Assembly: GCA_964016885.1 (NCBI GenBank)
Contig: OZ024742.1
Coordinates: 117,366,001-117,430,000 of the forward strand
Length of the DNA: 64,000 nt
DNA from: Eledone cirrhosa
Taxonomy: Eukaryota
Reading direction: 5' to 3'
Below the pieces are notes generated by a model, which had not been told where the DNA came from, did no database searches, and saw only the letters and a list, made by a program, of their open reading frames with translations. The position numbers and the translations under genes are program-made. Positions 4,800-56,925 of this stretch are shown in pieces. Position 1 is the first letter of the stretch, and each line of letters opens with the position of its first letter.

Positions 4800-4862
4800 C
4801 CCCACCTGATGATGTCACCAGGGTCTTACATAACCAGGCCATTGAAATATATATGGTGCTTT
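4800..4862 (+). ncRNA. Degenerate minimal hammerhead-ribozyme-like core (Penelope-type pLTR relic)
   Basis: CAC-CTGATGA-...-GAAAT-ATAT-AT-GGTG; the cleavage triplet is degenerate. Confidence 0.35.
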
Positions 4863-4937
4863 GCAACAGTAAAACTTTAAAGGGATACCTCCAATCCCTG
4901 GCCTCCTGTTGTTTTAATTAAATAAATAAATATACTG

Positions 4938-5050
4938 TGTATATATTTATATATATATACACACACACACACACACACACACACACACACACACACACAC
5001 ACACACACACACACACGCACACATAAACACACATACATACATACATATGT
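4938..5050. repeat. (TA)n/(CA)n compound microsatellite
   Basis: Seen directly in sequence. Confidence 0.95.
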
Positions 5051-5057
5051 ATAGATA

Positions 5058-7095
5058 TTATCATCATCTTCATCATTTTTATGTCTATTTTCCATTTTTG
5101 CATGGGTTGGACAGGTCCTTTTCAGCTCAACATCTTTTCATTTGTTGCGTTCCTTCTGTGAGTCTCACCATTTTAAGATCAGCTCTCACCACCTTTACCC
5201 AGGTTTTTTGGTCTGCTCTTACTGTGGCTTCCTTTCACTGGAAATTCCTGGAAATTCTTCACCAGCAATCATCATCCATGTGCTTCACATGTCGATACCA
5301 ATTCAGTCTTCTCTCTTGCATACCACTTTTGATTCTATATAAACTCACTTTCCCCCCTCAGTTGATCCAAGCTTTGGCATTCTTTCACATTTATATTGCC
5401 CATCCAACAATGCATGGTTGTTTCATTTCCCTCCAGTGTACACATATTCTCTGCAGTCAACGCCCATGTTTTACTTCCATGCAACATCACACTTTGCACA
5501 CAGGCATCATCTAACCATTCTTTTGAACATAGTGAGAAACCTTTTGTTGTCAACAGTGGGAGTAGCTCTGTATACTTCTTCCGTCCTATCTCTATTCTCA
5601 CTATTATGCTCTTTGAGCACCTTCCTCGACTTCTAATTAGTTCACCTACGTAGCAGAAGCTATCAACCACTTCTATGGATCCTTCTTGTGTTTGGAAAAG
5701 GTTTATATCACTGATGCTCTTCCCATCGATTGCCCCTGTGCATCAAGTACATACAAAGACTTGCTTTCCTGTTAGTCTGTATGCTAACCACTACACCTAT
5801 TGTGTACCCAAGATTTTTATTGTGTACATGTATAGAGTTTATGTCTACTCCTTTTTTGTCATATCAAGCAGGGACATTTCCCTGATAATATCAGTGTCCT
5901 GTCTTCTTTCCTGCTTACCAACACTTTTGACAGTAAATTCTGTTTCCATATTTTTTATGGATTCAGCTATAAGGACAAGATCATTCACATAGAGAAGTTG
6001 CCATGGAGATCTTGTCTTAAACTTCTCTGTTATGGCCTGGAGGACCAAAATGAACAGCAATAGTCTGAGATCTAAAGCCTGATGAATTCCTACCTGTACC
6101 TTGAATTCATTATTAAACTCACTTCCTACTCTCACTTTACTGACAGCTTCTCTATACATGGCTTGCACCACTGCTCTTACAAGCCATTTTTCTATACCTA
6201 ATTTTCTGAAGGACCACCAGATAACTGATCGAGTTACTCTGCCACAGGCCTTTTCTAGAACAAGAAAATCTAAATATAGTGGCTTATTCTTGGATTGGAA
6301 CATGTAGTTGCCTCATTAAGAAGAGGGCATCTATAGTACATAAAACCAAACTGCATCTCATCTAATTTGACTTTTTCCCTAATTAGTTGTGCTATAACTC
6401 TTTCCATCACTTTCATAACTAGATTATACTGCTGTGCCACTTATTGGGTATATCTCCGTCCTGCATTACCTAATTGACTATGCGTGTTACTAGTTGAACT
6501 CCTACTTCTCTCGATGCTTTTAGTATATCGCTGTCGATCTCTGACAATCCTGTGGCTCCCCCATTCTTCATATGCTTGATTGCTTCTTTGATCCTATAAC
6601 TGTAAATTTCAATTGCTAGTTCCTCTTTTAGGTAAGTTGTTGGTAGTCTCTCTATTTTTCCCTTTCATTCTCCACATTCATCAGCCTCTCATAGTATCAT
6701 TTCCAGGCCTCTTTCTTTTGAGCACCAGTGATACTAAGTACACTAGTGTCATTTCTAACACACTTTTCCCCAACAACATCCCAATTCACACTGGTGCACT
6801 GCTTTGCAATGTGGAACACTTTATATTCTTGATCCTGACGTTGCAAGACATGGGCAAACATTTTTTTTTCAGCCTTTTTCCAAGCTATGTACACTTGTCA
6901 TCTAGCTTCTTTTTTAGCTACTTGGTACTGGCCTCTGTTATCCATATTTTCTATTCTTTCCATATCTGTCTCTTGGTTTTAATGGCTCTGTCCACTGTGC
7001 TGTTCCACCACCGGGCTGGTGCTTAGCTCCAACCTCAAGTCTCATCTGTGAGTACAACAGGTCATCATGTAAGAATTTCCAATTGTCCTCTGTGA
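5058..7095 (-). mobile_element. RTE-clade LINE, 5'-truncated and internally deleted
   Basis: Minus-strand ORF pieces LYLDFLVLEKACGRV...VQVGIHQALDLRLLLFILVLQ...WQLLYVNDLVLIA (RT motifs, degenerate YADD) and VDSFCYVG...DACVQSVMLHGSKTWA. (CAT)n tail at ~5060-5075. Confidence 0.85.
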
Positions 7096-7309
7096 TATCA
7101 TACTCACACACACACATATATATATATATACATATACACACTCACATATCTATATGTATATATGGACTTATAATCCCTGGTGAAATAGTAGGGTTGGAGG
7201 TTTTAAACTTCACAAAGCCCATCACTTTCAAGCTCTGAACTCTGATGATTTCTTCCAGAGAAAGTTAGAAAACATGATAAAGAGGAAGTGTGAAAGAGAT
7301 ATAGAGAAT

Positions 7310-54249: not shown

Positions 54250-54718
54250 TAACAGGCATCTTTTTCATTTAAGGACTCTTTTTTCTGCACTTCCACTAGC
54301 CTCGTCTGTGGGCTCTGGTGCATGCTATGTACTGCCATTTACATTGGTCAGACTGGTCATCAACTGATCAACAGATTCACTGAACATCTGCAGGACATCC
54401 GGGTCAGCTACTTGTTTTTGGTGGCCCAACATTCCCACTCTGCCGGTCATTCCATACATCAGCTCCGTGTGTTCAGACTTGCTTTCCTGCACAGGACCCC
54501 AGACACACACTGCCAGTATAGAACAGAGGCTTATTGTTTTCTTAATATCTCTACTCCGCCATGGCCTTACTGCACCTCCTCTCTTCCTCTGATCTGCCCT
54601 TCACACCCCATCCAGTACCCACCCTCATCCATGTGCCTACACTGAAATAATCACACACAGTTAAATATTTTGAGAAATAGCTGTCGAAACGGCTTGGGCT
54701 CTCCCCTCAGGGTCCTGA
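54250..54718 (+). mobile_element. Penelope-like element 3' relic (GIY-YIG endonuclease plus pLTR end)
   Basis: FFCTSTSLVCGLWCMLCTAIYIGQTGHQLINRFTEHLQDIR...VAQHSHSAGHS fits the PLE GIY-YIG pattern C..C...YIGQT...L..RF.EH. Downstream TAGCTGTCGAAAC...CAGGGTCCTGA matches the 25011/26128 arms. Confidence 0.8.
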
Positions 54719-54852
54719 CTCTTTTCCTATATATATATATATATATATATATATATATGCAGAGAGAGAGAGACATACATAATGGCGACATCTCAGTTTC
54801 AAGAATTGACCTTTTTCTCATACATGGCTGGCACGAACATGACTTTTTAGCC

Positions 54853-54923
54853 CTACCAAAGATTTAGATTCCTTTCTAAAAAGAAAGGAATCTAAATCTT
54901 AGGTAGATTTAGATTCCTTTCTA
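54853..54923. repeat. Short hairpin plus a third direct copy of the arm
   Basis: AAGATTTAGATTCCTTTCT / AGAAAGGAATCTAAATCTT, followed by another ATTTAGATTCCTTTCTA. Confidence 0.8.
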
Positions 54924-55699
54924 TGGAAAGAAAAAAGAAAATGCCATGCTCACATAACATATATTGATGAGTTGTTAGAAGGGTATAATGTGTGCTATTT
55001 CTAGCATCACTACGATCCCGTCTTATTGTCCTGATATTAAAACATTCATTTGATAGTAAAATTACACTTTATTCAATGCACCATGTTGTTTGATAACATC
55101 GAGTTTCAAATACTATCTATTGAATCATCATCATCGTTTAATGTCCATCTTCTACACTAGCATGGGTTAGATAATTTTCTATATCCAAAGAATCCCTCCG
55201 ATGAAGGAATTTCTTCCAATATTGGTTGTCTTAATTATTTGAGATAATTAATATTGTTCCTTAATTCCAGAAACTGCAATCAGGGAGAAGATATTAGCGA
55301 AACTTTCTATCATTAGTTTATCTAGATTGTATTCCCCCAATAGATGTTTTGGCAGCAGATAAGATATGTTTTAAATGCTTGTATGATTCTTTTCATTGAG
55401 ATGTCCAAATATATTAGAGACAAATAATTTTCTGTATTGATTGTATCTTGTATTGATTGAAAAGTTCATAACTCAATTAAATAATTTAGTGTAATTTAAT
55501 CCTGGTTATTTTATTCATTATAAATATATATATATATATATATATATATATGTTGATTTACATTTATTGTTTATATATATATATATGTGTGTGTGTGTGT
55601 GTGTTGATTTACATTTCTTGTTTATATATTTATATATATATATATATATATAAAATTTCAAGTTATCAATAATGTAGTGATAATATATCGTCACGTTAG

Positions 55700-56684
55700 A
55701 GATGAACAGCGTACGTGTAGGTTTGCTCAACGAGTATAAATTATATTCCGGAGAAAATGTAGAAAAGATGAATATAAAATGAAAGTGCTTTCATAAAGGA
55801 ATTTATTAGGTATTGACATGTGTTTCTGTAACAGACGGAATACCTATGTATCGCTGCTTGCGTAATCATATAATGTTAGCAAGTATTCGATAGCAAATGT
55901 ATAATCAGTTGTCACTTCTTCAGAGATATTGGATAAATTGGAAAAAATCAGAAAAATTGAAGTATTTATATTAGTTGTAAGAAAGGAAGAAGAGAGGAGA
56001 TAGTATACGACAGATGGCAATTCAATTTACTGGTAAACAAGTATATAAAAGGTTTTAATGAGAATACAATGAGTATATGGCTTATTTTATCTAAATAAGA
56101 ATTTTTGGGAGTGCCTATTTTAATCTATATTTGACCAATTGAACAATGGACAGGGCTGGTCGTTTGGTGTAGTAGTATTAATACAGATATAAAGTGTCAA
56201 GTAAGGAAGAGGGATATTTTCACTGCTACTGTATAACAACAATGCTGGTAGCCTGCTGGTATATGCATTAGGGAATTGAATTAAGAAATCTCATTTTATC
56301 TATAGCAGTTTATATTAAATGGTAAAGAATAGAAGAGTTGATAGAATTAAGACTAATAGAGAATGTTAATATGTATTTTGACAATCAAACGGAGATGGAG
56401 ACAGGCGTTCAATCCTGGTAGCGTTTGTAATATGAAAATGTAGATTTCAAGCGATGGTTACAGTATAACGATCGCTCTATTCTGTTATTTAATAAAATAT
56501 TTTTGGATTTCATAATACAAAATAATTCCATATTACACAATTTACAAAATTCCTGTCCTTGGAAATATGCAAGAGCAGACACTATTATATCCCATTTTAC
56601 GTTAAATTGTTGGTTATTTTCGCGTAGCTGCCAAGCCTTGTCTGCGAGTGTTGTTACATAACGCTGGTTTTCATGTTTTATCAT
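55700..56684 (-). mobile_element. Penelope-like element 3' end (GIY-YIG C-terminus plus 3' UTR/pLTR)
   Basis: TTLADKAWQLRENNQQFNVKWDII...YFQGQEFCKLCNMELFCI...LLNNRIE..LYCNHR fits the PLE C-terminal T.LS..IW.LK...W.I...C.LC..E...LN.R.E...C.H pattern. Confidence 0.8.
55811..55929 (-). ncRNA. Type I hammerhead ribozyme candidate with intact core and extended stem II
   Basis: Minus strand ...ATATCT-CTGAAGA-AGTGACA...TGTTACA-GAAAC-ACAT-GTC-AATA, with AATAAA just downstream. It lies 3' of the GIY-YIG ORF on the same strand. Confidence 0.6.
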
Positions 56685-56925
56685 GTTTTACGGATGATGA
56701 AATTAGTATTATTATGGAAGCGAGGAAAACTATTGTTAAATTTGATGATAGCTACTGGGTTCGCAAAGATAGACCTTCTAATTTTGATATAACTATGGGT
56801 TCCAATGATTCGGCGGAAGTAACTGATCTTGTTGGGAATTTATATCACCCACAGACTACAAGGAAAATTCAAGGATCTCCACGGTGGACTCTACCGTGAC
56901 GATGCGTTCCTATTAGTTAACTCAT
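56680..56925 (+). mobile_element. Penelope-like RT fragment, inverted relative to the adjacent GIY-YIG piece
   Basis: IIMEARKTIV..DSYWVRK...FDITMGSNDSAEVTDLVG, frameshifted to IYI...GGLYRDDAF (PLE RT MGS.D.AE..LVG...GLYRDD). Confidence 0.8.

What the first reader, a model, noticed from the sequence alone, without database searches (positions are those of the whole stretch)
4800..56925. Window-wide system: dispersed minimal hammerheads plus fold-back DNA tied to Penelope-like elements
About ten CUGANGA...GAAA(C/U)-loop-NUH-like cores (4805, 23180, 25040, 26067, 35540, 40505, 48706, 50310, 50790, 55815) and at least seven long inverted repeats occur in 64 kb. Many are followed by AATAAA and bounded by (TA)n tracts. 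Inference: a large population of short non-autonomous ribozyme-carrying PLE derivatives inserting into TA microsatellites. Inside a neural-gene intron they could supply self-cleavage sites and dsRNA substrates for the extensive A-to-I editing known in coleoid cephalopods. PLE hammerheads are a known class; their density, long-stem-II variants and fold-back coupling here are the potentially new part. Most cores are degenerate and some may be chance matches.
Basis: partly seen in the sequence, partly recalled or inferred. Interest (0 to 1): 0.7.

Follow-up and report, generated by a model that had tools for sequence, protein, structure and literature searches.

The report
Penelope transposon stubs with long-armed hammerheads
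The motifs are broken or half-copied ends of several Penelope-type jumping genes that litter this octopus-like genome at the same density everywhere; their self-cutting RNA motif is a known kind with an unusually long arm, and the tens of thousands of back-to-back stubs likely record how the element's enzyme starts copying.

Summary
Real repeats, no window-specific system. The window lies in a ~165-kb intron of a Dpr-like gene. Families A, C and D are tied to Penelope-like ORFs; A and D meet the Hydra-clade motifs. No window copy passes a full descriptor (0, against 41 in 590 kb of random genome and 0.5 shuffled). Fold-back density is average (10 against 9.7 per 64 kb). Hammerheads in Penelope ends, the U3-A8 core, (TA)n targets, inverted copies and the one-sided tail are all published. 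Less well covered: stem II arms of 56-90 nt, and family A, which is predicted to fold as a monomer. Family A has 33,980 exact 3' halves but only 2,986 matches to the main subfamily's 5' half. Its stubs stop inside stem II, and 18 of 18 pairs carry the tail on exactly one arm. This fits priming on both target strands near the RNA 5' end rather than separate non-autonomous elements. Cleavage and editing are untested. The scan reported the same system before in this genome.

The parts
3218..3433 (+). Exon of a Dpr/zig-8-like two-Ig-domain gene (host gene)
   Evidence: Best PDB match Dpr6, E 1.5e-11; 82-83% to P0001
3434..64000 (+). Intron of that gene, about 165 kb; the next exon lies about 105 kb past the window end
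   Evidence: tblastn of P0001 on window and neighbouring stretches
4741..4931 (+). Family F end; core at 4806, 31-nt arm, palindromic stem III; N17 is G in this copy. No ORF link found
22598..22777 (.). Head-to-head stub pair with a one-sided tail and no hammerhead; Penelope-type by layout only
   Evidence: (same layout in L142)
23140..23452 (.). Family E head-to-head pair (23140-23308 minus, 23299-23452 plus); old; core broken at C3 and G12
24976..25991 (-). 5'-truncated family A (Hydra-clade) element: about 1 kb of 3' UTR and a U3-A8 hammerhead (core 25107) with broken stem III; no tail
   Evidence: 76% over 1033 nt with L042, which carries the endonuclease end
25988..26215 (+). Inverted family A arm with tail; core 26032, G12 26095, predicted cut after 26117; stems I and III damaged, MFE is not the hammerhead
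35570..35760 (.). Family H fold-back; long-arm core at 35644 (minus) with G12 lost
35883..36342 (.). Family I head-to-head pair, each arm with a degenerate short-arm U3-A8 hammerhead (35975 minus, 36251 plus)
48634..48857 (+). Family B stub with inverted tail piece in front; core 48706, 61-nt arm whose base pairs are lost in this copy
50251..50342 (-). Family B 3' half only
50753..50960 (.). Family C palindrome; minus arm has the full core (50820) with a stem I mismatch, plus arm lacks the 5' core and has the tail
51797..51923 (.). Head-to-head stubs of a family whose hammerhead lies upstream of the kept part
   Evidence: L176, L182
54671..54730 (+). Family A 3' half stub ending in (TA)n, next to an unrelated Neptune-type endonuclease remnant (54176-54555)
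55680..57040 (.). Young family D (Hydra-clade) insertion: endonuclease end and 3' UTR on minus (56687-55680), inverted RT piece on plus (from 56687); core 55923, 90-nt arm, N17 at 55815, almost no stem I

Best explanation
The motifs are 3' ends (pseudo-LTRs) of several Penelope-like retrotransposon families, mostly Hydra clade where an ORF was found, inserted in (TA)n; the fold-backs are likely made during insertion itself, and the hammerhead is predicted to cut only in intact copies, none of which is in this window. Shown: family membership, ORF link for A, C and D, TA ends, head-to-head layout, one tail per pair, lesions in window copies. Inferred (about 0.55): the element's RNA starts inside the pseudo-LTR, for family A at a TTAGT in the 3' side of stem II. 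The RT-endonuclease nicks both strands of a TA tract and primes each at one of two internal start sites a short way downstream of the RNA 5' end. It runs off that end and the two short cDNAs are joined, giving a palindrome of about 110-250 bp with half a ribozyme on each arm and the tail on one arm. Priming at the far 3' end gives the longer, 5'-truncated copies that keep a whole hammerhead. In the host intron these are passive insertions; dsRNA formation would be a by-product.
For: Intact 3,543-nt family A units in tandem with a 719-aa ORF carrying RWR, DKT, CxCX5C, CxxC and CxH, the Hydra marks of PMC8557442 section 11; D has CxCX5C, CxxC, CxH and 97-98% identical copies; C follows an endonuclease end in L061, L071 and others. 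Intact A copies fold as the hammerhead in MFE and centroid; 3 of 10 stem II pairs change on both sides between subfamilies. Genome counts: 33,980 exact 3' halves and 2,986 5' halves, reversed controls 0; 17 of 20 5'-half loci are complete. Of 89 arms, 62 stop 9-21 nt upstream of the pattern, 2 at 22-60, mode 15 nt. 18 of 23 position-ordered loci are close head-to-head pairs and 18 of 18 have one tail. In vitro, an anole element extends both strands from two internal start sites that bound the tail, and does not need its hammerhead (PMC11167929). Penelope has an internal promoter (PMC2377424).
Against: No RNA data, so neither the start site nor cleavage is shown. The covariation rests on only three subfamilies, and fold energies are no better than shuffles (z 0.05 and -1.1). 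B has one locus with a Hydra endonuclease upstream and collinearity was not shown; E, F, H and I have no ORF link. Two of the 62 'short' arms (L189) are long copies of a divergent subfamily, and a few arms are local duplicates. The two genome patterns differ in subfamily reach, so 9% is approximate (9 of 89 arms in the sample). The end position was tested in family A only. Majority D and F fail my descriptor, so they may not be ribozymes at all.
Confidence: 0.8

Rival explanations
1. The short copies are true non-autonomous elements (retrozyme- or MITE-like) that are themselves transcribed and re-copied.
For: Five family C loci share one palindrome junction; one family A junction recurs in L013, L088 and L202. 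B, E and F have no firm ORF link. Retrozymes are described as non-autonomous Penelope derivatives (bioRxiv 10.64898/2026.07.22.740005, part 1).
Against: A stubs occur in several subfamilies, each with both arms of its own type, and junctions vary base by base. Most lack the 5' core. No tandem monomer arrays of these families in the window. A fixed RNA end would also make junctions recur.
Confidence: 0.2
2. The fold-backs arise by snap-back or stalling of RT at the long stem II hairpin (self-priming), not at an RNA 5' end.
For: Ends fall within the stem II arm; palindromes at inverted junctions were read as self-priming in rotifer elements (PMC3846280).
Against: Ends peak 15 nt up the 3' side, not at the helix base; sampled junctions do not keep the natural loop and 5' arm; some carry untemplated T runs. 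Self-priming does not explain one tail per pair. Stub pairs at 22.6k and 51.8k contain no hammerhead.
Confidence: 0.2
3. The motifs and fold-backs form a host-used system that cuts or recruits ADAR to this neural pre-mRNA.
For: The window is intronic in a Dpr-like gene; young inverted repeats are the main ADAR targets in animals (PMC9989829, passages); 7 descriptor-passing hammerheads lie in the same intron past the window.
Against: No enrichment of fold-backs or hammerheads here; window copies are decayed; those 7 are 4 sense and 3 antisense; no A>G excess among copies of D, B or A2.
Confidence: 0.05

Closest known systems
Hydra clade of C-terminal EN+ Penelope-like elements, incl. Hydra-1_Obim (Craig et al. 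2021, PMC8557442)
   Same: RWR/K, DKT, CxCX5C, CxxC and CxH motifs; (TA)n targets; hammerhead in the 3' end; inverted 5'-truncated copy; unpaired base on both sides of stem II as in family C.
   Different: Hydra hammerheads in their File S2 have C3-G8 cores and stem II arms of about 12-26 nt; families A, B, D and E here have 56-90 nt, and A has U3-A8, a non-palindromic 5-bp stem III and a 3.5-kb unit (published Hydra units are mostly under 3 kb).
Minimal type I hammerheads of metazoan Penelope-like elements (Cervera and De la Pena 2014, PMC4209133)
   Same: Thousands of dispersed single motifs, opposite-strand pairs 100-700 bp apart, U3-A8 variant (Schistosoma Cercyon), palindromic stem III.
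   Different: Their helix II is 6-8 bp; a large helix III with monomer folding was reported for fungal and protist elements, not animals. Long loops are precedented in spike-moss PLE-X (about 53 nt, File S2 of PMC8557442).
Poseidon element of Anolis (Frangieh et al. 2024, PMC11167929)
   Same: Two RT start sites bounding the tail, both strands extended, AT-rich targets, hammerhead dispensable for insertion.
   Different: Different clade; in vitro data. Here the evidence is a genomic footprint: a 5' wall inside stem II and one tail per pair.
Animal non-LTR retrozymes (bioRxiv 10.64898/2026.07.22.740005; PMC7229834 seen as a listing only)
   Same: Type I hammerheads related to Penelope pseudo-LTRs, non-coding copies.
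   Different: Retrozymes are tandem units each with a whole hammerhead; the window copies are head-to-head stubs or truncated ends of coding elements.

Membership tests
Hydra-clade Penelope-like element | Single ORF with RT and C-terminal GIY-YIG; RWK-like, DKT, CxCX5C, CxxC and CxH motifs | tested here: met
   Family A, all motifs in a 719-aa ORF; family D, CxCX5C/CxxC/CxH in a 503-aa stretch. No tree was built.
Hydra-clade Penelope-like element | ORF link for families B, E, F, H, I | tested here: inconclusive
   One B locus (L275) has a Hydra-type endonuclease upstream; none found within 1.5 kb for E and F; H and I not examined
Penelope-like element | Tandem or inverted arrangement, optional tail, (TA)n target | tested here: met
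   tandem 3,543-nt units; 18 of 18 pairs with one tail; 14 of 16 ends at TA runs
Type I hammerhead | Core with 3-8 pair, GAA, A15.1-U16.1, NUH and stems I-III in family majority | tested here: met
   Majority A, B, C and E pass the descriptor
Type I hammerhead | Same, families D and F | tested here: not met
   D: core conserved but stem I at most four A-U pairs with a bulge, 0 of 19 loci pass; F: 0 of 9 pass, weak stem II base
Type I hammerhead | Same, the copies inside this window | tested here: not met
   0 pass; lesions listed
Type I hammerhead | Self-cleavage at the NUH | not testable with these tools
   Needs an assay; no RNA run was available
Non-LTR retrozyme | Tandem non-coding units, each with a whole hammerhead | tested here: not met
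   No such array in the window; A and D are coding elements
Non-LTR retrozyme | Circular RNA | not testable with these tools
   No RNA run available

The most novel reading that the evidence does not exclude
Family A is an active Hydra-clade element whose transcription start lies inside the enlarged stem II of a monomer-competent U3-A8 hammerhead. The promoter splits the ribozyme, so only read-through or 3' copies can cut. The ~34,000 half-ribozyme stubs, each pair with one tail, are a genome-scale record of two RTs priming opposite target strands at two fixed sites near the RNA 5' end. Long-armed motifs (15 of 41 random hits had arms of 26-97 nt) suggest tens of thousands of hammerheads that short-loop searches miss.
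Probability: 0.45. Interest if true: 0.6.

Novelty: new variant of a known kind. Interest (0 to 1): 0.38.

Why it matters
How Penelope-like elements make inverted copies and one-sided tails, and what their hammerheads do, are open questions. Family A offers an intact ORF, thousands of whole ribozymes predicted to fold alone, and tens of thousands of stubs with a sharp 5' limit, so the start-site and two-strand priming model can be tested with 5' RACE and an in vitro assay. The descriptor count (41 per 590 kb, roughly 200,000 per genome by extrapolation) also shows how common these motifs are in this animal. For this window itself the result is ordinary: decayed insertions at average density.

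Tried and rejected
Rfam scan: no hammerhead hit listed, only microsatellite-driven miRNA matches. Neptune endonuclease at 54253 as the partner of family A: rejected; none of 14 other Neptune loci had a family A-F motif within the 1.5-kb flanks, while L042 and L302-L304 tie A to a Hydra ORF. Cores at 35540 and 40505: rejected. Palindrome 42276-42426 as a repeat family: no other copy found. Window-specific enrichment: family-HMM loci are 7 in 64 kb against 3.7 per 100 kb at random, but the families were picked from this window; the unbiased counts show none. Editing fossils in copies: no consistent A>G excess (A1 had 7 against 5 counts). Extra G before the stub 5' end as a cap trace: 10 of 14 arms, but 5 are confounded by the partner arm, so weak. 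RNA evidence: no RNA holder listed, so no reads were laid. Lunse et al. 2017 on PLE hammerhead variants is not held; the descriptor figure in the supplement of PMC4209133 was not seen; either may already cover long arms.
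Full report
Setting. The window is G000:C3:117366001-117430000 of a 3.0-Gb genome. An exon at 3218-3433 matches Dpr6 best among solved structures and is 83% identical to an Octopus bimaculoides protein, so the animal is probably an octopod (inference). The next exon of that protein lies about 105 kb past the window end, so everything from 3434 on is one intron on the plus strand.

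The observation in the window alone. A loose core pattern gives 11 hits against 6.3 +/- 2.2 in local dinucleotide shuffles; a full type I descriptor gives 0. Rfam shows no hammerhead among the 150 of 164 matches listed. The motifs become real only as families. Majority sequences of A, B, C and E pass the descriptor; D and F do not. Stem II arms are 56 (A), 61 (B), 11 (C), 90 (D), about 73 (E) and 31 nt (F). The sites at 35540 and 40505 are repeats without a core. Each window copy is damaged: F has G at position 17, E has lost C3 and G12, both long A copies have broken stems, B has lost its stem II base, C has a stem I mismatch and sits in a palindrome, and D has an intact core but almost no stem I.

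Is the window special? No. The same descriptor finds 41 complete motifs in 59 random 10-kb blocks (0.5 in shuffles) and 11 in 200 kb of neighbouring DNA, against 0 here, where about 4 would be expected. It is conservative: it passes only 9 of 20 whole family A2 loci. Inverted-repeat clusters number 10 in the window and 9.7 per 64 kb at random. The link to TA tracts is real: 14 of 16 ends against 14% of random points.

What the families are. D continues upstream into an RT-linker-GIY-YIG frame with CxCX5C, CxxC and CxH. C follows an endonuclease end in several loci. For A, window 24976-25991 is collinear with the 3' UTR of L042, which begins with an endonuclease end, and intact tandem units of 3,543 nt carry a 719-aa ORF with RWR, DKT, CxCX5C, CxxC and CxH. 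These are the defining marks of the Hydra clade (PMC8557442, section 11), which includes an octopus family with (TA)n targets and a hammerhead (its supplement). The Neptune remnant at 54.2k is not A's partner. B has one locus with a Hydra-type endonuclease upstream; E, F, H and I are assigned by layout and motif only.

Family A ribozyme. It has a 5-bp stem I, a 9-11-bp stem II helix with a long cap, a 5-bp non-palindromic stem III and GUC. Intact copies of two subfamilies fold into this shape as MFE and centroid, but with energies no better than shuffles. In an alignment of 9 copies (8 distinct) 92.8% of cells pair and 3 stem II pairs change on both sides; this reflects only three subfamilies. 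Exact 32-base patterns give 33,980 3' halves and 2,986 5' halves of the main subfamily, with reversed controls at 0; 17 of 20 5'-half loci are complete.

The fold-backs. Among the first 30 pattern matches in position order (23 loci after merging pairs), 18 are close head-to-head pairs, all 18 with the tail on exactly one arm, and 4 keep the 5' core (L260 and L261 may be one duplicated event). In 89 arms from loci not fetched by the family A DNA query, 62 stop 9-21 nt upstream of the pattern, 2 at 22-60 and 7 beyond; the mode is the A of TTAGT (two of the 62 are mis-scored long copies). TTAGT as an initiator is recalled; an internal promoter is shown for Drosophila Penelope (PMC2377424, passages) and an initiator-like motif noted in rotifer pLTRs (PMC3846280, passages). 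An anole element extends both target strands from two internal start sites that bound the tail, and hammerhead mutants still insert (PMC11167929, parts 1-2 of 4). Together these suggest that stubs are cDNAs of the RNA's 5' end, one per strand, joined back to back. This is inference; self-priming at the hairpin and re-copying of stubs remain possible. The window's pairs at 25-26k and 50.8k obey the one-tail rule.

Host function. Young inverted repeats are the main ADAR targets in animals (PMC9989829, passages), so some editing of these hairpins is likely but unremarkable. Nothing here points to use by the host: no enrichment, decayed copies, 4 sense and 3 antisense intact motifs further along the intron, and no consistent A>G excess among copies.

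What is known. Hammerheads in Penelope ends, U3-A8, opposite-strand pairs and low in vitro activity are in PMC4209133 (parts 1-2 of 4 read). Inverted copies, tails and TA bias are in PMC8557442 (passages, section 11, supplement part 2 of 59 and search rows) and PMC3846280. Published Hydra arms are about 12-26 nt; a spike-moss element reaches about 53 nt. Seven literature searches listed no paper devoted to long-armed hammerheads in cephalopods, but Lunse et al. 2017 could not be read (known only through the reference in PMC6765202, passages) and supplements of PMC4209133 were not seen. The retrozyme preprint was read in part 1 of 5. Earlier notes of this scan describe the same system in this genome and others; they are unchecked and not counted as support.

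Verdict. A real but genome-wide and largely known phenomenon: new variant of a known kind. Confidence 0.8 in the identity, about 0.55 in the start-site and two-strand mechanism. Interest 0.38.

Noticed in passing
L158:3003 and L158:3352 (G000:C3, about 3 kb past the window end): Two descriptor-passing short-arm hammerheads in tandem, 349 nt apart, on the sense strand of the same intron; the best local candidate for an active dimeric ribozyme.
   Followed up: no
window 55680-56420 and L081-L100: Family D is young (97-98% identical, 2,029 candidates) and keeps a perfect core and 90-nt arm, yet has almost no stem I; either inactive or completed by splicing or another strand.
   Followed up: partly
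window 50753-50887; L057, L058, L059: The same palindrome junction occurs at five family C loci, with different flanks in the four viewed; a fold-back may have been re-copied as a unit.
   Followed up: partly
L302 (G000:C1:91473241-91487442): Head-to-tail array of at least five 3,543-nt family A units; the two whole units examined have open ORFs.
   Followed up: partly
window 15240-20039: Near-complete L1/Tx1-type LINE on plus: 442-aa ORF1-like frame with a zinc knuckle, 893-aa endonuclease-RT frame ending in a stop, then 262 aa more.
   Followed up: no
window 42276-42426: 150-bp near-perfect palindrome with no other copy found in the genome search; origin unexplained.
   Followed up: partly
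window 61724-61891: Head-to-head fold-back of an abundant SINE-like repeat (185 local hits, B-box-like motif upstream in relatives; label recalled), no hammerhead.
   Followed up: no
window 54176-54555: Old Neptune-type GIY-YIG remnant; the family has 10,171 candidates genome-wide with long CA-rich 3' UTRs.
   Followed up: partly
L141, L148, L189, L199 and other random blocks: Many further hammerhead families not in the window, with stem II arms of 26-97 nt in 15 of 41 hits.
   Followed up: no
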